Made by a program: the position numbers and the translations under genes. Positions 7,477 through 22,409 of a DNA stretch of 64,000 nucleotides are shown here, in pieces. The notes under the pieces were generated by a model. It had not been told where the DNA came from. It ran no database searches and saw nothing but the letters and a program-made list of their open reading frames with translations. Source of the stretch: an uncultured Gammaproteobacteria bacterium (lineage in GTDB: Bacteria > Patescibacteriota > Patescibacteriia > Magasanikbacterales > UBA922); assembly GCA_964344965.1 (NCBI GenBank), contig CAYFPJ010000002.1, forward strand, positions 68,623 to 132,622, in the 5' to 3' direction. The stretch's first letter is position 1, and each line of letters opens with the position of its first letter.

Positions 7477-8025
7477 TTAATCTTCTGAACCTTTCAAAAC
7501 ATACCTACTTACTTGGGACATTCTAAAAAAGATAAATTTTCGCTCTTTTAGGGTAAAATAGCGTTCAATCAATTTGTTTATTTCTTTGTATGTGGAGACA
7601 TGATCATCATGGGCATTCGCCTGTCCAGCTAGGTGCATGGCGATTTTGGAGACAAAATTTTCTGTTGGCAGAGAAACTAGCAACTCCCTAACCGAACCCA
7701 TGCTTAAAAAATCTTGTAGCAAAGATTCTATATCATCCAAGTAAAGATGTTCCAAAACACTAGCCAAAACAATTTTCCTGGCATCTACGCTTTTGTAGTC
7801 ATCGACATCTGAAAGTTCCGGGACAATATCATAACCTATTACATTTGCTTTTCCTAATTTCTTTTTGAAATGACCAACGCCACAGCCATAGTCCAAAATT
7901 ATCCCTTCTTCGTTCTGAAGATCGCCAAAATCAATAATAGTCTGTAAAATTTTATCAAAATAAATTTTACTTACACCTGTGTAATAATCATTGGTGTAAT
8001 CAATTGTGTCTGTATTGCGAGCCAT
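7477..8025 (-). CDS. class I SAM-dependent methyltransferase
   Basis: Motif I is ILDYGCGVGHF. The protein is 182 aa. Confidence 0.6.
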   Translation of the reverse strand: MARNTDTIDYTNDYYTGVSKIYFDKILQTIIDFGDLQNEEGIILDYGCGVGHFKKKLGKANVIGYDIVPELSDVDDYKSVDARKIVLASVLEHLYLDDIESLLQDFLSMGSVRELLVSLPTENFVSKIAMHLAGQANAHDDHVSTYKEINKLIERYFTLKERKFIFFRMSQVSRYVLKGSED

Positions 8026-8027
8026 AG

Positions 8028-8462
8028 TTAAATGATATATTTTAAATAATAACTTTGATTATCTTCTTTATAAATATCAAAATAATTTTTTTTAAATAAT
8101 TTTAATGAAGACAGATTATCTTTGTGTATTTCGGCCAAAATATTTTTTCCTGCTCCGACTTCTTGTAGAACTTGGCCAAGCAACTGACGACCCAAACCTT
8201 GACCGTGAAAATCTGGGTCAATAGCAATGGAGATAATATAACTACCATTATCGAGATCAAGACGACAATATCCAACGACTTTATTTTCTCTTTCTAAGAC
8301 AAAACAGAGATTGTCATCGCTATCAAAATATTTGTGATTAAACCACTGATCGTGTTTGACAAAATCAATCTCCTCAGAATTGTTGGATTTATTCCTTACT
8401 CTAGGATGATTTCGTATCTCCATAATTCTTTGTGAGTCTTCCGGTTTGACTCTTCTAATCAT
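8028..8462 (-). CDS. GNAT family N-acetyltransferase (PseH-like candidate)
   Basis: 144 aa with a GNAT core (IAIDPDFHGQGLGRQLL, the Q/RxxGxG/A acetyl-CoA motif). It sits in the nonulosonic-acid gene block. Confidence 0.6.
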   Translation of the reverse strand: MIRRVKPEDSQRIMEIRNHPRVRNKSNNSEEIDFVKHDQWFNHKYFDSDDNLCFVLERENKVVGYCRLDLDNGSYIISIAIDPDFHGQGLGRQLLGQVLQEVGAGKNILAEIHKDNLSSLKLFKKNYFDIYKEDNQSYYLKYII

Positions 8463-8463
8463 A

Positions 8464-19250: not shown

Positions 19251-19256
19251 AAGCTT

Positions 19257-20378
19257 TCACTGGTTAGCATATTTATTAATTCTTTCTTGATATTCCTTTA
19301 GGAAAAAATTCTTATCATAATATTTTTCACCTGAAAATAAAGGAACAAAAAATCCACCAAAGCCTCTTTTAAACTTACTAATATTTACCTCTTTATCAGA
19401 TGGAAAATGAGACAATGTATTGCCAAATTCCTGCCAGCCCAACTCATAATAATGGAAGTCATTATTTTTCATCCATTCTATGGCCTTCCACTGGATATAA
19501 TGTGAAAAAGGTAGTTTGCTAGAATTATTTTTTTTGCAAGAAGCTCCATAGTAGACATTATTTTTGAAATTATAAAAATAAGAAAAACCTAAAACATTAT
19601 CACCATCTTTTGCCATAGCCAAAAAAGCCTTATTTTCAAGAATAAAATCATATAAAATTTCAATAGTAATACTTGGCCTGTCTCTTCTTTCAGAAACACC
19701 ATAATGTACACTTATAAAATCATCAAATACTTCTCTGTTTATATTTTCATGATTATAGATAGAAACTTCTACACTTTTTTTGGCTCTATCTATATCTGAG
19801 CTATGTCCATGACGCAATTGTTTTTTCAACCTATCCAATGAAATTGACAAATCTATAATATTGGTGTTGATTGATGTGTCTAAATAATTATACTGCATTA
19901 AATAATTATATTGCTGTCTCTCAGCCGAAATATAAGAGTTATTCAAAATAGGGAATACCAAAGTTGTCTTTACAACCTTATTCTCTATTGCCAATTCATC
20001 TATATGATCAAAGACAAACTTCATGATTCTCTTCCTTTCTTTATTACTCAGACCATTTTCAAAAGCAGGAGTCTGACCAGGCTCATAACCATATGAAAAT
20101 TCATTATGACTTGGTAGACGATGCAAGAGAAGTGGACAAATTGCCACTATTTTATTATTGTCATATACCAAAAAAGATTTGGATTCTACTTGAAGTTTGG
20201 GATTGACATTGATCTCATATTCCAACCACTTTGTGGTGTGCCACAGCCAAGCATCATCACTTGCTAGACAAAAATTGTCCCATTCTTGATACTTGTAAGT
20301 TGTCAACTGTACTATTTCCATACTATATTTATCTAGAAAAAAAATCTTTAATTTTCCCAGCCACATACTTAATATCAT
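19257..20378 (-). CDS. hypothetical protein, possibly FemAB/BioF2-like acyl-CoA N-acyltransferase superfamily
   Basis: About 355-373 aa with no clean motif. The track start (20378) overlaps the PseC-like gene by 50 bp. An alternative ATG at 20321 would leave a 7-nt gap after the TAA stop codon of the PseC-like gene (20331-20329). Confidence 0.3.
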   Translation of the reverse strand: MILSMWLGKLKIFFLDKYSMEIVQLTTYKYQEWDNFCLASDDAWLWHTTKWLEYEINVNPKLQVESKSFLVYDNNKIVAICPLLLHRLPSHNEFSYGYEPGQTPAFENGLSNKERKRIMKFVFDHIDELAIENKVVKTTLVFPILNNSYISAERQQYNYLMQYNYLDTSINTNIIDLSISLDRLKKQLRHGHSSDIDRAKKSVEVSIYNHENINREVFDDFISVHYGVSERRDRPSITIEILYDFILENKAFLAMAKDGDNVLGFSYFYNFKNNVYYGASCKKNNSSKLPFSHYIQWKAIEWMKNNDFHYYELGWQEFGNTLSHFPSDKEVNISKFKRGFGGFFVPLFSGEKYYDKNFFLKEYQERINKYANQ

Positions 20379-21432
20379 CTACACCCAAGCTAGTATGGCA
20401 TGGGAGTGTGATACAAGAATTTTGATACTGTTCCTCATTTTTTAATTCAAAGTCTTCAAATCCATTCTCTCTGTAGTATGGATGAGCATAGACAGCCGGA
20501 TAATGGAAATTAACTCCCACCCCATTATTTTTCAAATAAGCAAAAAGTCGGTCTCTATCTTCTGGATCTTTAGTCCTAATAATATACATGTGCCAGCCTG
20601 AATAGTCTCGCTCTAATTCTACTGGAAGTATAATTTGCTCCACATCTGACAATTCTCCTTCATACAATTTTACCACTTCATGTCTTTTTTTCAAAAAATT
20701 ATCCAACTTTTTTAGCTGACTAATCCCCAAACCTGCCTGCAGATCAGTCATTCTATAATTATAACCAAGTCCAGTCATGATGTTATTGCCATCTTCGTCT
20801 TTGAAAACCCCATGACTTCTGAGCAATACCATTTTATTATAAAAATTTTTGTCATTTGTCACTATTGCTCCTCCTTCACCAGTAGTAATAGGTTTGACAG
20901 GATGAAAACTAAAGACCGTCATATCTGATAGAGAACCAATTCTCTTATTTTTGTATTTAGACCCAAGAGCATGGCAAGCATCCTCTATTACTAACAAATT
21001 ATGTTTCTTGGCAATTCTATCTATCGCATCCATCTCACATGGTTGACCTACAAAATGTACTGGAACAATGGCTTTGGTCTTGTCTGTAATCAAATTTTCA
21101 ATTCTTTCTTCATCTATATTATATGTATCTAGACGGATATCACAAAATACTGGCTTCACTCCAATAGCAAGTAGCATATTGGTCGTAGCCACAAAAGTGT
21201 TTGGAGTGGTGATCACTTCATCCCCTTCTTGCAAACCAGCTGCTAGATAAGCTAAGTGCAGAGCAGATGTTCCACTATTTGCCACAACTGCATATTTGGT
21301 ATGGCAATAATCTGCCAAAAATTTTTCAAACTCCAAAATTTTTGGGCCCTGGGTTAGCCAATCTGATTTTAGTATAGAAACAACCTTATCGATATCTTGT
21401 TGATCTATTGATTGTTTTCCGTATGGTATCAT
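20329..21432 (-). CDS. DegT/DnrJ/EryC1-family PLP aminotransferase (PseC/LegC-like UDP-4-keto-6-deoxy-HexNAc 4-aminotransferase)
   Basis: N-terminus IPYGKQSIDQQDIDKVVSILKSDWLTQGPK matches PseC/LegC-type enzymes. The active-site motif is SFHPVKPITTGEGG. Confidence 0.75.
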   Translation of the reverse strand: MIPYGKQSIDQQDIDKVVSILKSDWLTQGPKILEFEKFLADYCHTKYAVVANSGTSALHLAYLAAGLQEGDEVITTPNTFVATTNMLLAIGVKPVFCDIRLDTYNIDEERIENLITDKTKAIVPVHFVGQPCEMDAIDRIAKKHNLLVIEDACHALGSKYKNKRIGSLSDMTVFSFHPVKPITTGEGGAIVTNDKNFYNKMVLLRSHGVFKDEDGNNIMTGLGYNYRMTDLQAGLGISQLKKLDNFLKKRHEVVKLYEGELSDVEQIILPVELERDYSGWHMYIIRTKDPEDRDRLFAYLKNNGVGVNFHYPAVYAHPYYRENGFEDFELKNEEQYQNSCITLPCHTSLGVDDIKYVAGKIKDFFSR

Positions 21433-22409
21433 ATTTCTTTTAGCAATTTTTTAAATTCTTCTTTTGTCAACCAACTATCATTTTTATCACTAGTAAATTT
21501 GAAATTACCATCCAGCTTTTTACCTTTATCAAGGTATTTTTTATACTCTTCATCACCCAAAAATTCTGGCAATATGACATAATGCTTTTCCAATTCAACA
21601 GAATGCATAGCCTCTTGCTCTGTGAGAAGTACTTCATGTAATTTTTCACCAGGCCTAATACCGATAACATTTCTTTGGCAATTTGGAACCAATGCTTCAA
21701 AAAGTTCAGACAATTTCATACTAGGCATCTTTGGAACAAAAATCTCGCCCCCCTCTCCATGATTTAGTGCTGTCAGAACCAAATCCATACTTCTCTGAAG
21801 AGTCATCCAGAACCTAGTCATTCTTTCATCAGTAATATTGACTACTCCAGTATCACCATTTTTTAATAAAGTCTCTATAATACTTCCTCGACTGGCTATC
21901 ACATTGCCATAGCGCACAACAATAAACTTACAACCGACACCAGAGTAAGCATTGCCAGACACAAATAATTTTTCTGCACACAGTTTGGTAGATCCATATA
22001 GATTGACAGGATGTGCTGCTTTGTCAGTAGAGATCAAGACAGCCTTTCCCACATTTTCGTCAATACAGGCTTCAATCACATTTTGGGTGCCAATAATGTT
22101 TGTTTTTACTGCCTCAAATGGATTGTACTCCAAAGCTGGGACTTGTTTGAGAGCGGCAGCATGAACAACCATATCCGCACCTCTAAAGGCTCTTTTCAAT
22201 CTCCGCAAATCACGCACATCTCCAATAAAATATCTCAATCTATCATCATTCAGTTCTTTTCTCATTTGAGACTGTTTCAACTCATCACGACTAAAAACTA
22301 TCAATTTTTTTAGATTATAATTTTCGAGCAAAAATTTGACAAAACTCTTTCCAAAAGATCCTGTCCCTCCTGTAATTAAAACTGTTTTATTATCAAACAT
22401 AGATATCAA
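21429..22409 (-). CDS. UDP-N-acetylglucosamine 4,6-dehydratase (PseB/LegB/CapD family)
   Basis: N-terminus KTVLITGGTGSFGK. Also VHAAALKQVPALEYNPFEAVKTNIIGT and LYGSTKLCAEKLF (YxxxK-type). The protein is 326 aa. Confidence 0.75.
   Translation of the reverse strand: MISMFDNKTVLITGGTGSFGKSFVKFLLENYNLKKLIVFSRDELKQSQMRKELNDDRLRYFIGDVRDLRRLKRAFRGADMVVHAAALKQVPALEYNPFEAVKTNIIGTQNVIEACIDENVGKAVLISTDKAAHPVNLYGSTKLCAEKLFVSGNAYSGVGCKFIVVRYGNVIASRGSIIETLLKNGDTGVVNITDERMTRFWMTLQRSMDLVLTALNHGEGGEIFVPKMPSMKLSELFEALVPNCQRNVIGIRPGEKLHEVLLTEQEAMHSVELEKHYVILPEFLGDEEYKKYLDKGKKLDGNFKFTSDKNDSWLTKEEFKKLLKEI

What the first reader, a model, noticed from the sequence alone, without database searches (positions are those of the whole stretch)
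7477..22409. Pseudaminic/legionaminic-type nonulosonic acid pathway with two NeuB paralogs and an acetamidino (WbuX-HisH-HisF) trio
These genes co-reside in one operon-like block: PseB/LegB-like 4,6-dehydratase, PseC/LegC-like aminotransferase, GNAT, two full-length NeuB-family synthases (both with SAF domains), a CMP-sugar synthetase, and the WbuX amidotransferase with HisH/HisF homologs. The WbuX/HisH/HisF trio is the machinery for N-acetimidoyl groups on Pse/Leg-type sugars. Two synthases plus extra enzymes (class-III aminotransferase, Gfo/Idh/MocA, HAD, kinase, DUF218, methyltransferase) suggest either two different nonulosonic acids or an elaborately N-acylated derivative. PseG/LegG-type hydrolase was not recognised, so a variant route is possible.
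Basis: partly seen in the sequence, partly recalled or inferred. Interest (0 to 1): 0.6.

Follow-up and report, generated by a model that had tools for sequence, protein, structure and literature searches.

The report
Pseudaminic acid locus with unusual replacements
This is a real gene block for making pseudaminic-acid-type surface sugars in an uncultured (probably candidate-phyla-radiation) bacterium, but it lacks two textbook enzymes, seems to replace one of them with a protein family of unknown function (DUF218), and carries a second, uncharacterised sugar-acid synthase cassette that recurs in many phyla.

Summary
Positions 7477-22409 carry 17 tightly packed minus-strand ORFs. PseB, PseC and PseI score above NCBIfam equivalog cut-offs, so the pathway is Pse-type, not Leg-type. 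A WbuX/HisH/HisF trio, a GNAT, a methyltransferase and every other listed enzyme are also present.

- **No PseG, PseF or NeuC/LegG in the window.** No scanned window ORF matches them.
- **CMP activation.** The single cytidylyltransferase is FlmC/SpsF-type.
- **DUF218 where PseG should be.** It lies directly upstream of PseI. In 8 of 8 relatives' loci it sits in Pse operons without PseG. Family members are fused to GNAT, formyltransferase, cytidylyltransferase, Gfo or HAD domains. It is a candidate non-orthologous UDP-sugar hydrolase.
- **Second synthase (NeuB2).** It belongs to a distinct clade with its own active-site signature. It always accompanies the cytidylyltransferase, nearly always a class-III aminotransferase plus an oxidoreductase, and nearly always Pse genes. 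NeuB2::cytidylyltransferase and aminotransferase::cytidylyltransferase fusions exist.

Most likely it makes a second CMP-activated nonulosonic acid, probably with an extra amino group. The product and the DUF218 activity are inferred, not shown. Verdict: new variant of a known kind.

The parts
21429..22409 (-). PseB, inverting UDP-GlcNAc 4,6-dehydratase
   Evidence: TIGR03589 452.2 bits, above cut-off 407.75. LegB model only 59 bits.
20329..21432 (-). PseC, UDP-4-keto sugar aminotransferase
   Evidence: TIGR03588 462.3 bits, above cut-off 423.5. LegC-family model 258.6, below 420.
19257..20378 (-). FemAB-like acyltransferase. Inferred to be a candidate alternative N-acylating enzyme for the PseC product.
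   Evidence: TIGR04421 FemAB family, 89.7 bits, below cut-off. The same PseC-FemAB-like adjacency occurs in L023, L051 and the P0005 contig.
18636..19250 (-). HisH-type glutaminase subunit of the acetamidino trio
   Evidence: TIGR01855 237.7 bits, above cut-off 105.4.
17827..18633 (-). WbuZ/HisF-type cyclase-like subunit of the acetamidino trio
   Evidence: Best hit TIGR03572 WbuZ, 260.7 bits, cut-off 299.7. HisF model 238 bits.
17232..17732 (-). IS200/IS605 tnpA inserted in the wbuZ-wbuX intergenic gap. Same orientation as the operon; no gene is disrupted.
   Evidence: NF033573 148 bits, cut-off 55, full profile length. The same insertion is on an independent assembly, L001. In L052 the HisF and WbuX genes are 4 nt apart.
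15951..17156 (-). WbuX-type N-acetyl sugar amidotransferase
   Evidence: TIGR03573 299.7 bits, above cut-off 203.2.
14861..15946 (-). APH-family kinase, first gene of the Magasanikbacteria-type cassette
   Evidence: PF01636 67 bits; weak homoserine-kinase-type hits. The order kinase, aminotransferase, HAD, Gfo, NeuB2, cytidylyltransferase is conserved in L004, L005, L013, L020 and the P0005 contig.
13576..14856 (-). Class-III (glutamate-semialdehyde-aminomutase-like) aminotransferase, 'AT3'
   Evidence: PRK06209 328.6 bits, below cut-off 486. PDB best hits are GSA aminomutases at 1e-55. 16 of the listed homologues at 44-50% identity are fused to an SpsF-type cytidylyltransferase.
12944..13570 (-). 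HAD-IA phosphatase-like protein
   Evidence: PF00702; weak TIGR02247 and YihX glucose-1-phosphatase hits.
11949..12947 (-). Gfo/Idh/MocA oxidoreductase. An aldo-keto reductase takes its place in most related loci.
   Evidence: iolG model 130.8 bits; archaeal UDP-GlcNAc 3-dehydrogenase model 101.5, both below cut-off. Aldo-keto reductase at the equivalent position in L018, L019, L023, L027, L031, L035-L047.
10949..11944 (-). NeuB2, a nonulosonate-synthase paralogue of an uncharacterised clade
   Evidence: PF03102 186 bits plus SAF. NeuB model 223.4 and PseI model 171.3, both below cut-off. 25% identical to Caulobacter PseI. Clade signature K-[ILV]-H-x-T-D, Q163, F-A-D-H, G-D-H insertion and E-D-Y-E, with catalytic residues retained. 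Fused to the cytidylyltransferase in L021, L023, P0081, P0086, P0087 and P0093.
10197..10943 (-). FlmC/SpsF-type cytidylyltransferase. The only CMP-sugar synthetase candidate in the window.
   Evidence: PF02348 37 bits. No PseF or NeuA NCBIfam hit at 1e-5. Full-length alignment to Caulobacter FlmC: 24% identity, BLASTP 1e-15, phmmer 2e-13. PDB best hit 6oew.
9573..10187 (-). DUF218 protein, candidate replacement for the UDP-sugar hydrolase PseG
   Evidence: PF02698 67 bits. Lies directly upstream of PseI here and in L021, L023, L051, L052 and L054. Lies between PseC and GNAT-PseI in L053 and after PseC in L055; none of these loci has PseG. Family members are fused to GNAT, formyltransferase, CTP_transf_3, Gfo or HAD domains. 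Model pLDDT 90.4; the only PDB fold match is YdcF.
8464..9567 (-). PseI, pseudaminic acid synthase
   Evidence: TIGR03586 431.5 bits, above cut-off 340.25. Best PDB hit is C. jejuni PseI 8h2c at 1.4e-79. 39.5% identical to Caulobacter PseI. Asn replaces the first metal-binding His.
8028..8462 (-). GNAT N-acetyltransferase, PseH-like
   Evidence: Best NCBIfam hit TIGR03585 PseH, 51.5 bits, cut-off 93.1. The DUF218-PseI-GNAT sub-block is conserved in L023, and there are PseI::GNAT and DUF218::GNAT fusions in L051 and L021.
7477..8025 (-). Small SAM-methyltransferase-like protein. Inferred to be a tailoring enzyme.
   Evidence: PF13489 29.5 bits, cut-off 27. Methyltransferases sit next to PseI in L018, L019, L020, L054 and L055.
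22422..23975 (-).
   Evidence: PF05159 Capsule_synth 31 bits; NF046086 BFO_1060 family 26.9 bits. A homologue sits at the same position in L023. BFO_1060 relatives are the Pse/Leg transferases of T. forsythia (PMC5420450).
23978..25762 (-). MsbA/PglK-like ABC exporter adjoining the block
   Evidence: HepA-family model 346 bits, MsbA 317, PglK 212, all below cut-off. Homologues flank PseB in L023, L051, L039 and L044.
31873..33231 (-). Second BFO_1060-like candidate nonulosonic-acid transferase
   Evidence: NF046086 70.7 bits, E 1.2e-19, below cut-off 200.

Best explanation
The block builds CMP-activated pseudaminic-acid-type sugars for a surface glycan. The organism is probably a Magasanikbacteria-like member of the Patescibacteria.

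**Shown by family assignment**
- PseB and PseC convert UDP-GlcNAc to the UDP-4-amino-4,6-dideoxy-L-AltNAc intermediate.
- A PseH-like GNAT can N-acetylate that intermediate, and a FemAB-like enzyme may add a different acyl group.
- PseI condenses the freed sugar with PEP.
- WbuX with HisH/HisF turns an N-acetyl group into an acetamidino group.

**Inferred**
- Two canonical steps are done by non-orthologous enzymes. CMP activation is done by an FlmC/SpsF-type cytidylyltransferase instead of PseF. UDP removal is done by the DUF218 protein instead of PseG.
- The embedded six-gene cassette (kinase, class-III aminotransferase, HAD, Gfo, NeuB2, cytidylyltransferase) makes a second nonulosonic acid.
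- NeuB2 condenses a modified sugar with PEP and passes the product directly to the cytidylyltransferase.
- The oxidoreductase and aminotransferase replace a hydroxyl with an amino group. The most plausible result is a 5,7,8-triamino-type acid.
- The kinase and HAD add and remove a transient phosphate handle.
For: **Pse identity**
- PseB, PseC and PseI are above equivalog cut-offs.
- PseI's best solved relative is C. jejuni PseI.

**Cytidylyltransferase**
- It aligns over its full length with Caulobacter FlmC.
- FlmC lacks homology to PseF yet completes the six-enzyme Pse pathway reconstituted in E. coli (PMC7591256).
- SpsF plays the equivalent role for legionaminic acid in B. subtilis (PMC7439481).

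**PseG absence**
- NCBIfam scans of nearly all window ORFs found no PseG.
- Two PseG probes and an iterated profile find PseG in 6 related loci but nothing in the window, with probes run at E<=10.

**DUF218**
- In 8 distinct loci it sits in Pse operons directly before PseI or GNAT-PseI. L053 is a plain PseB...PseC-DUF218-GNAT-PseI-PseF-like operon.
- DUF218 and PseG are mutually exclusive across loci, 8 versus 6.
- Subfamily members are fused to GNAT, formyltransferase, CTP_transf_3, Gfo or HAD domains. This parallels the known PseG-PseH chimeras (PMC7874193).

**NeuB2**
- Its catalytic residues are retained, but it has a clade-specific active-site signature.
- NeuB2::cytidylyltransferase fusions exist, as do aminotransferase::SpsF fusions.
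- The core cassette recurs next to PseB/PseC and a second synthase in about 20 distinct loci. These come from Magasanikbacteria, Planctomycetes, Omnitrophota, Deltaproteobacteria and Bacteroidetes.

**Supporting context**
- Two BFO_1060-like candidate transferases are in the window.
- An 8-amino nonulosonic acid exists in nature (PMC3210612).
Against: - No biochemical datum exists for DUF218, NeuB2, the aminotransferase, the oxidoreductase, the kinase or the HAD.
- The DUF218 model resembles only E. coli YdcF (TM 0.50), not PseG or any hydrolase.
- At least 11 related loci show neither PseG nor DUF218 within 10 kb. PseG can therefore be encoded elsewhere, or other substitutes exist. Only 64 kb of this genome was visible.
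- There is one cytidylyltransferase for two synthases. This fits a single final product as well as a promiscuous enzyme.
- The aldo-keto reductase plus class-III aminotransferase pair also occurs in Aeromonas and Legionella Pse clusters with a single NeuB. The pair therefore does not need NeuB2.
- NeuB2 active-site motifs are the same in loci with and without the kinase and HAD. This argues against a phosphorylated NeuB2 substrate.
- The window's PseI has Asn in place of a metal-binding His.
- The position of the extra amino group is a guess.
Confidence: 0.55

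Rival explanations
1. There is one backbone and one product. Both synthases make pseudaminic-acid stereoisomers from the same PseB/PseC intermediate and differ only in which N-acyl variant they accept. PseI takes the acetyl form from the GNAT, and NeuB2 takes the form from the FemAB-like enzyme or another acyltransferase. The aminotransferase, oxidoreductase, kinase and HAD build or tailor the acyl side chain rather than the sugar.
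For: - There is a single cytidylyltransferase and a single PseB/PseC pair in the block.
- Two different N-acyltransferases are present.
- Related loci carry acyl-carrier and AMP-ligase or ATP-grasp modules next to the cassette.
- Nearly all NeuB2 loci also carry Pse genes.
Against: - NeuB2 is only about 25% identical to a true PseI, and its substrate-facing motifs are rebuilt. This is more than an acyl-pocket change would need.
- NeuB2 occurs in many loci without a FemAB-like gene.
- Aminotransferase::cytidylyltransferase fusions tie the aminotransferase to the sugar acid itself, not to a side chain.
Confidence: 0.2
2. The cassette is an 'animal-like' sialic-acid or Kdn-type route that does not depend on the Pse genes. 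The kinase phosphorylates a hexosamine or hexose, possibly after amination by Gfo plus the aminotransferase, as in kanosamine synthesis. NeuB2 condenses the sugar phosphate with PEP. The HAD removes the phosphate, and the cytidylyltransferase activates the product.
For: - Kinase and HAD genes flank the synthase in all Magasanikbacteria-type loci.
- The L005 cassette has no Pse gene within 10 kb.
- A comparable proposal exists for the second Leptospira synthase. That gene lies next to an unassigned aminotransferase and a CMP-synthetase and is fused to a putative phosphatase domain (PMC3438082).
- AP_endonuc_2 genes follow NeuB2-cytidylyltransferase in L007, L019, L027 and L035.
Against: - Most NeuB2 loci have no kinase or HAD, yet their NeuB2 active-site motifs are identical.
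- The kinase is APH-type, not a ROK/hexokinase-type sugar kinase, and has no solved relative by sequence.
- The HAD shows no specific similarity to Neu5Ac-9-P or Kdn-9-P phosphatases.
- The solved Leptospira NeuB (6ncs) lacks the NeuB2 signature. Orthology with the fused Leptospira synthase was not tested.
Confidence: 0.15
3. DUF218 is not the UDP-sugar hydrolase. PseG is encoded elsewhere in the genome, or the HAD or another hydrolase does the job. DUF218 is a tailoring enzyme, for example a SAM-utilising enzyme like E. coli YdcF, that happens to be linked to Pse genes.
For: - The only structural relative is YdcF, deposited as an S-adenosyl-L-methionine utilising enzyme.
- Many related Pse loci lack both PseG and DUF218.
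- DUF218 is also fused to Gfo and HAD domains, which are not PseG neighbours in the canonical pathway.
Against: - L053 is a minimal PseB/PseC/GNAT/PseI/PseF-like operon in which DUF218 is the only unassigned gene and PseG the only unassigned step.
- Strict mutual exclusion with PseG in the loci examined.
- Its fusion partners are the enzymes acting just before the hydrolase step (N-acyltransferases) and after the synthase step (cytidylyltransferase).
Confidence: 0.4
4. The block encodes legionaminic acid, or a mix of Leg and Pse. NeuB2 would be LegI, as the automatic annotation of its homologues suggests.
For: - JGI names several NeuB2 homologues 'N,N'-diacetyllegionaminate synthase'.
- NeuB2 scores slightly higher on the NeuB model than on the PseI model.
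Against: - No LegB (59 bits against a cut-off of 475), no LegC above cut-off, and no LegG/NeuC hydrolysing 2-epimerase in any window ORF scanned.
- NeuB2 is below the NeuB cut-off (223 against 400) and carries non-canonical active-site motifs.
Confidence: 0.05

Closest known systems
Canonical CMP-pseudaminic acid pathway of Campylobacter jejuni / Helicobacter pylori (PseB, PseC, PseH, PseG, PseI, PseF)
   Same: PseB, PseC and PseI equivalogs are present above cut-off, plus a PseH-like GNAT. The order of chemistry is the same up to the synthase.
   Different: There is no PseG and no PseF. A DUF218 protein and an FlmC/SpsF-type cytidylyltransferase stand in their places. Six extra cassette genes and a second synthase are embedded. 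PseI has Asn for one metal-binding His.
[quoted passage not shown]
   Same: It uses a cytidylyltransferase unrelated to PseF. The window enzyme aligns with FlmC over its full length (1e-15). PseI is 39.5% identical to Caulobacter NeuB.
   Different: Caulobacter has a PseG (FlmD), which has no counterpart in the window. It has no second synthase, class-III aminotransferase or acetamidino genes.
Aeromonas group I flagellin glycosylation islands (PMC7874193) and the Legionella pneumophila Sg6/Sg12 LPS cluster (PMC3694923)
   Same: Pse genes are interleaved with an aldo-keto reductase, a class-III (HemL-like) aminotransferase and a cytidylyltransferase. Legionella also has HisH/HisF plus a WbuX-like gene. 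Some Aeromonas subgroups lack PseG.
   Different: These have only one NeuB-family synthase, no kinase or HAD, and no DUF218 reported. The functions of the reductase and aminotransferase are unknown there too. Orthology with the window genes was not tested directly.
Leptospira interrogans nonulosonic acid cluster, second synthase set (PMC3438082)
   Same: A divergent extra synthase lies beside an unassigned aminotransferase and a CMP-synthetase inside a 5,7-diamino acid cluster. A phosphorylated-intermediate route was proposed. The closest solved relatives of NeuB2 and of the cytidylyltransferase are Leptospira proteins (6ncs, 6oew).
   Different: The Leptospira partner pathway is Leg, not Pse. 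That synthase is fused to an endonuclease-like domain. 6ncs does not carry the NeuB2 signature. Orthology is unverified.
Bacillus subtilis sps legionaminic acid pathway (SpsC, D, E, F, G, M; PMC7439481)
   Same: It has an SpsF-type cytidylyltransferase and an SpsE NeuB-family synthase. UDP-linked precursors are used.
   Different: The product is Leg. SpsG (PseG-like) is present. There is no class-III aminotransferase and no second synthase.
WbuX/WbuY/WbuZ-type acetamidino machinery (E. coli O145 FucNAm, P. aeruginosa WbpG, C. jejuni PseA; from my own knowledge)
   Same: WbuX is above cut-off, with adjacent HisH and HisF paralogues.
   Different: The target sugar is not known here. An IS200 element separates wbuZ from wbuX.
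E. coli YdcF / DUF218 family (PDB 3ca8)
   Same: Pfam DUF218 match, and the only significant fold match.
   Different: Only 13% identity and TM 0.50. The window protein belongs to a subfamily of about 279 representative clusters, embedded in or fused to nonulosonic-acid pathway enzymes.

Membership tests
CMP-pseudaminic acid pathway | PseB: inverting UDP-GlcNAc 4,6-dehydratase (TIGR03589) | tested here: met
   452.2 bits, cut-off 407.75
CMP-pseudaminic acid pathway | PseC aminotransferase (TIGR03588) | tested here: met
   462.3 bits, cut-off 423.5
CMP-pseudaminic acid pathway | PseH N-acetyltransferase (TIGR03585) | tested here: inconclusive
   The GNAT at 8028-8462 has PseH as its best hit, but at 51.5 bits against a cut-off of 93.1
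CMP-pseudaminic acid pathway | PseG UDP-sugar hydrolase (TIGR03590, GT-B fold) | tested here: not met
   No NCBIfam hit in any window ORF scanned. Caulobacter FlmD and the L018 PseG-like probe, plus jackhmmer profiles, find nothing in the window. The rest of the genome was not visible.
CMP-pseudaminic acid pathway | PseI synthase (TIGR03586) | tested here: met
   431.5 bits, cut-off 340.25. 8h2c at 1.4e-79. Caveat: the first metal-binding His is Asn.
CMP-pseudaminic acid pathway | PseF cytidylyltransferase (TIGR03584) | tested here: not met
   No hit at 1e-5. The enzyme present is FlmC/SpsF-type.
CMP-legionaminic acid pathway | LegB, LegC, hydrolysing 2-epimerase LegG/NeuC, LegI | tested here: not met
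   LegB model 59 bits against 475. LegC-family model 259 against 420. No NeuC/LegG in any window ORF scanned.
N-acetylneuraminate synthase NeuB (TIGR03569 equivalog) | Score above the equivalog cut-off of 399.65 | tested here: not met
   NeuB2 223.4; PseI 277.9
NeuB superfamily (PF03102 + SAF) as active PEP-condensing enzymes | Conserved Glu/Lys/Gln, two metal-binding His, Asp, and Arg of the SAF domain | tested here: met
   NeuB2 keeps E13, K41, Q43, K107, H193, E217, H219, D230 and R297 when aligned to N. meningitidis NeuB. PEP-phosphate Ser132 and Ser213 equivalents are replaced (Pro, Ala). Residue roles are from my own knowledge of the NmNeuB structure.
   DAHP synthase 40 bits (1e-10) against NeuB/PseI models at 171-431 bits
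WbuX/WbuY/WbuZ acetamidino system | WbuX amidotransferase plus HisH-like and HisF-like partners | tested here: met
   WbuX 299.7 bits, cut-off 203.2. HisH 237.7, cut-off 105.4. WbuZ is the best hit at 260.7, just under 299.7.
FlmC/SpsF-type cytidylyltransferases | Full-length similarity to a genetically validated member | tested here: met
   Caulobacter FlmC: 24% identity over 237 aa, 1e-15. Enzymatic activity was not tested.
Animal-type phosphorylated sialic acid route (kinase, 9-phosphate synthase, HAD phosphatase) | Sugar kinase, a synthase specific for sugar phosphate, and a NANP-like phosphatase | tested here: inconclusive
   A kinase and a HAD are present but belong to non-diagnostic families. 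NeuB2 motifs do not differ between loci with and without the kinase and HAD.
DUF218 (YdcF/SanA/ElyC) | Pfam PF02698 match and YdcF-like fold | tested here: met
   67.3 bits, cut-off 27.6. Foldseek 3ca8, TM 0.50, probability 1.00.

The most novel reading that the evidence does not exclude
Two linked claims.

1. A subfamily of the uncharacterised DUF218 (YdcF/SanA/ElyC) family is the UDP-sugar hydrolase of pseudaminic acid synthesis in organisms without PseG. This would be a first catalytic function for the family.
2. The aminotransferase, oxidoreductase, NeuB2 and SpsF-type cytidylyltransferase cassette acts on the freed, nucleotide-less sugar. Here it also has a kinase and a HAD. It builds a new triamino (for example 8-amino) nonulosonic acid through a synthase clade with a rebuilt active site.
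Probability: 0.2. Interest if true: 0.8.

Novelty: new variant of a known kind. Interest (0 to 1): 0.6.

Why it matters
- **Pathway prediction.** Pseudaminic acids are virulence-linked surface sugars, and their pathway is a drug and glyco-engineering target. Current prediction schemes call a Pse pathway incomplete when PseG or PseF is missing. Recognising FlmC/SpsF-type and DUF218-type substitutes would change those calls for many uncultured lineages.
- **DUF218 function.** If DUF218 is a nucleotide-sugar hydrolase, it gives a testable biochemical lead for a large family, including E. coli YdcF, SanA and ElyC. Their roles in envelope biogenesis are unexplained.
- **New sugar chemistry.** The NeuB2 cassette is widespread and has no assigned product. 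It is a concrete, clonable entry point to a possibly new nonulosonic acid.
- **Candidate-phyla-radiation biology.** The locus shows that bacteria with small genomes invest at least 50 kb in an elaborate surface glycan.

Tried and rejected
- **Legionaminic acid reading:** rejected from the model scores.
- **KDO8P/DAHP reading:** rejected.
- **PseG among window GT-B proteins and unknown ORFs:** nothing found, using two probes and iterated profiles.
- **PseF or NeuA elsewhere in the window:** none. The other nucleotidyltransferases are MobA/MurU-like.
- **PDB sequence searches for the HAD, kinase and Gfo proteins:** no informative relatives.
- **Literature:**
  - No paper holds both 'DUF218' and 'pseudaminic'.
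  - Nothing assigns a function to the class-III aminotransferase plus reductase pair.
  - The Tenacibaculum O-antigen cluster paper gave no usable gene list.
  - The large NulO-synthase phylogeny paper mentions no unknown clade under my search terms.
  - The Geobacillus paper was uninformative.
  - No held paper mentions HP0326, so the PseF-PseG fusion of H. pylori rests on my own memory.
- **Hairpins at the IS200 ends:** only AT-rich chance repeats.
- **Kinase structure:** not predicted. Only the single window sequence could be submitted, which would give a poor model.

Full report
**Observation**

The interval 7477-22409 is filled exactly by 17 minus-strand ORFs. Gaps run from -50 to +9 nt, except around one insertion. 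GC content is 33-38% and GC skew is uniformly negative, as in the rest of the window.

- PseB: 452.2 bits, cut-off 407.75.
- PseC: 462.3, cut-off 423.5.
- HisH.
- WbuZ/HisF: 260.7, cut-off 299.7.
- WbuX: 299.7, cut-off 203.2.
- An APH-family kinase.
- A class-III aminotransferase resembling glutamate-semialdehyde aminomutase.
- A HAD-IA protein and a Gfo/Idh/MocA oxidoreductase.
- A NeuB+SAF protein that reaches neither the NeuB cut-off (223.4 against 399.65) nor the PseI cut-off (171.3 against 340.25). I call it NeuB2.
- A weak CTP_transf_3 protein and a DUF218 protein.
- PseI: 431.5, cut-off 340.25.
- A GNAT whose best hit is PseH (51.5, cut-off 93.1).
- A small methyltransferase.

- A FemAB-like acyltransferase at 19257-20378.
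- An intact IS200/IS605 transposase at 17232-17732. It lies in the otherwise short wbuZ-wbuX spacer, and an independent assembly carries the same insertion.

**Context**

The block is one segment of a same-strand surface-glycan locus of at least 50 kb.
- Downstream lie an unknown 611-aa protein, a GT2 and a phosphonate module. That module has PEP mutase fused to a cytidylyltransferase (405.5 bits, above cut-off), a decarboxylase-like TPP enzyme and an Fe-ADH.
- Upstream lie a Capsule_synth/BFO_1060-like transferase and an MsbA/PglK-like ABC exporter.
- Next comes a methyltransferase / NTP-transferase / second APH kinase / SDR / NTP-transferase::dehydroquinate-synthase-like / CDP-alcohol-transferase-like module.
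- Beyond that are a second BFO_1060-like protein, gmd/fcl, several GT4 genes and an O-antigen-ligase-like protein.

The closest relatives of the cassette genes are MAGs of Candidatus Magasanikbacteria and other Patescibacteria, at 63-78% identity. The window is therefore probably from such an organism. This is an inference.

**Pse, not Leg, with two canonical enzymes absent**

- LegB and LegC models score far below cut-off. No scanned window ORF matches NeuC/LegG, PseG or PseF.
- I took the Caulobacter FlmC, FlmD (PseG) and NeuB (PseI) sequences from the synthetic operon in the supplement of PMC7591256.
- FlmD finds nothing in any window ORF at E<=10. An iterated profile finds nothing either, although it detects PseG in six related loci.
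- FlmC aligns over its full length with the window cytidylyltransferase: 24% identity, 1e-15.
- That paper states that FlmC has no homology to PseF. [quoted passage not shown]
- B. subtilis SpsF, of the same type, is needed after legionaminic acid is made.
- The block's single CMP-sugar synthetase is therefore an FlmC/SpsF-type enzyme.

**DUF218**

The DUF218 gene lies directly before PseI-GNAT. Its homologues always sit in Pse-type operons that lack PseG:

| Locus | Gene order |
|---|---|
| L023 | AT3-DUF218-PseI-GNAT (PseI 478.8 bits) |
| L051 | PseB-PseC-...-AT3-DUF218-PseI::GNAT fusion |
| L052 | AT3-DUF218-NeuB |
| L054 | PseB-PseC-CTP_transf-WbuX-like-HisH-HisF-MT-DUF218-PseI |
| L055 | PseC-DUF218-formyltransferase-HAD-GNAT-NeuB-CTP_transf |
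| L053 | PseB...PseC-DUF218-GNAT-PseI-PseF-like |

(AT3 = the class-III aminotransferase; MT = methyltransferase. Sources.)

- L053 is the cleanest case. PseB, PseC and PseI are all above cut-off. DUF218 is the only unassigned gene, and PseG is the only unassigned step.
- In L021 DUF218 is fused to the GNAT.
- A profile search of 1.84 billion representatives finds about 279 clusters of this subfamily at E<=1e-30. Of ten multi-domain members scanned with Pfam, the partners were GNAT (2), formyltransferase (2), CTP_transf_3 (3), Gfo/Idh/MocA (2) and HAD (1).
- PseG-PseH chimeras are documented in Aeromonas. From my own memory, H. pylori HP0326 is a PseF-PseG fusion; I could not find this in the held library.
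- In the loci examined, DUF218 (8 loci) and PseG (6 loci) never co-occur. At least 11 loci show neither.
- The AlphaFold model is confident (pLDDT 90.4). It resembles only E. coli YdcF and no hydrolase of known mechanism.
- No held paper links DUF218 and pseudaminic acid.

I conclude that DUF218 is an integral enzyme of this pathway; the comparative evidence for that is strong. Its most likely job is UDP removal. That assignment rests on elimination and on the analogy of fusion patterns, and I put it at roughly even odds.

**NeuB2 and its cassette**

- NeuB2 is only 25% identical to Caulobacter PseI, whereas the window PseI is 39.5% identical.
- Homologues are almost all metagenomic.
- Aligned with N. 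meningitidis NeuB and C. jejuni PseI, NeuB2 keeps the catalytic Glu, Lys, Gln, both metal-binding His, Asp and the SAF-domain Arg.
- The whole clade has K-[ILV]-H-x-T-D where PseI has K-[IV]-A-S-x-E. It has Gln where PseI has Ser or Thr. It has F-A-D-H where PseI has [LF]-S-D-H.
- It also has a two-residue insertion (usually G-D-H) and an acidic E-D-Y-E motif.
- Across about 20 distinct loci, NeuB2 is followed by, or lies close to, the FlmC-type cytidylyltransferase. In most of them it is accompanied by the class-III aminotransferase and an oxidoreductase.
- These loci come from Magasanikbacteria, Planctomycetes, Omnitrophota, Deltaproteobacteria, Bacteroidetes and unassigned contigs.
- The oxidoreductase is an aldo-keto reductase in most loci and Gfo in the Magasanikbacteria type. 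In most of these loci PseB, PseC and a second synthase also lie within 10 kb. Where tested, that synthase is a true PseI or is ambiguous between NeuB and PseI.
- NeuB2 is fused to the cytidylyltransferase in L021, L023 and four database proteins.
- The aminotransferase family is fused to an SpsF-type cytidylyltransferase in 16 of the listed homologues.
- These fusions show that the NeuB2 product is what the cytidylyltransferase activates. They also show that the aminotransferase works on the same sugar acid or its immediate precursor.
- The kinase and HAD are specific to the Magasanikbacteria-type version.

**Mechanism, and what is inferred**

Shown: the family memberships, the synteny, the fusions and the active-site signature.

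Inferred:
- Oxidoreductase plus aminotransferase most simply converts a hydroxyl into an amino group.
- Class-III transaminases and aldo-keto reductases prefer substrates without a nucleotide. A DUF218::Gfo fusion hints that oxidation follows UDP removal.
- I therefore favour amination of the freed 6-deoxy sugar, or of the free acid. This would give a 5,7,8-triamino-type acid. A sugar of that type is known from Flexibacter (Tenacibaculum) maritimus.
- The new charged group would explain the need for a synthase with a rebuilt, more acidic pocket.
- The kinase and HAD may add and remove a phosphate handle. A paralogous APH kinase upstream sits beside a MurU-like nucleotidyltransferase. That pairing is typical of anomeric sugar kinases (from my own knowledge), so phosphorylation at C1 is one option.

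None of this is tested.

The alternatives are:
- One Pse backbone with two acyl variants.
- An animal-like phosphorylated route, as proposed for the extra Leptospira synthase.
- PseG encoded elsewhere.

Points against my model:
- One cytidylyltransferase serves two synthases.
- The reductase/aminotransferase pair also occurs with a single NeuB in Aeromonas and Legionella.
- NeuB2 motifs do not differ between loci with and without the kinase and HAD.

**Comparison and novelty**

The locus works like the known CMP-Pse pathway, and four of its six defining features are met or plausibly met. PseG and PseF were tested and not found. It is therefore a variant, not a canonical member.

The acetamidino trio is ordinary. 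The FlmC-type activation is known from Caulobacter. The DUF218 link and the NeuB2 clade with its fusions are not described in the literature I could search.

I rate it a new variant of a known kind, with interest 0.6. The chemistry class is familiar. But it offers a testable function for a large family of unknown function and a clonable route to a probably new nonulosonic acid.

Noticed in passing
window 17157-17826 (tnpA 17232-17732, minus strand): An intact IS200/IS605 transposase gene sits between wbuZ and wbuX, in the same orientation as the operon. The same insertion is on an independent assembly (L001). It disrupts no gene but could affect expression of everything downstream, from WbuX to the methyltransferase.
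   Followed up: partly
window 8464-9567, PseI motif GFSDNN: The window's PseI has Asn where NeuB-family enzymes have the first metal-binding His (C. jejuni PseI has GLSDHS). The same change occurs in the PseI of L021, L053 and L013 (FSEN). It is a subclade trait rather than an error, and its effect on metal use is unknown.
   Followed up: partly
window 1082-4668: A phosphonate module lies directly downstream. It has PEP mutase fused to an N-terminal cytidylyltransferase (TIGR02320, 405.5 bits), a TPP-dependent decarboxylase-like protein and an Fe-alcohol dehydrogenase. This suggests a CMP-activated hydroxyethyl- or aminoethyl-phosphonate decoration of the same glycan.
   Followed up: partly
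window 25759-31767: This module holds a methyltransferase, a MurU-like NTP transferase, a second APH kinase (paralogue of the cassette kinase) and an SDR. It also holds an NTP-transferase fused to a dehydroquinate-synthase-like domain (aroB model 264.9 bits, below cut-off) and a CDP-alcohol-transferase-like protein. It looks like synthesis and transfer of a nucleotide-activated cyclitol or polyol phosphate.
   Followed up: no
window 22422-23975 and 31873-33231: Two proteins have partial similarity to the BFO_1060 family, whose Tannerella forsythia members are the genetically proven Pse/Leg-derivative transferases. Two candidate transferases would fit two nonulosonic acid donors or two linkages.
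   Followed up: partly
window 5634-7469: A 611-aa protein directly after the block has no Pfam or NCBIfam match and no homologue in any fetched locus. Unrelated large unknown or PFTS_polysacc/CotH-like proteins occupy similar end-of-cluster positions in related loci.
   Followed up: partly
L007, L012, L017, L019, L044 (related loci): In most aldo-keto-reductase-type loci the PseC homologue is fused to, or preceded by, an RmlD-like SDR domain (about 700-aa proteins). This hints at a branch from the PseB 4-keto product towards a 4-hydroxy 6-deoxy-hexosamine. The feature is absent from the window.
   Followed up: no
L021 402-2156, L023 9971-11767; P0241 and 15 other proteins; P0285, P0311, P0368, P0323, P0371, P0264, P0270, P0373: A dense network of gene fusions links NeuB2, the SpsF-type cytidylyltransferase, the class-III aminotransferase, DUF218, GNAT, formyltransferase, Gfo and HAD domains in uncultured bacteria.
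   Followed up: yes
window 19257-20378 versus 20329-21432: The listed FemAB-like ORF overlaps the end of pseC by 50 nt. The true start is probably a later codon.
   Followed up: no
window 35809-38978: gmd (583.6 bits, above cut-off) and an fcl-like gene flank an RfbH-like PLP enzyme. This points to a GDP-6-deoxy or 3,6-dideoxy hexose branch in the same locus.
   Followed up: no
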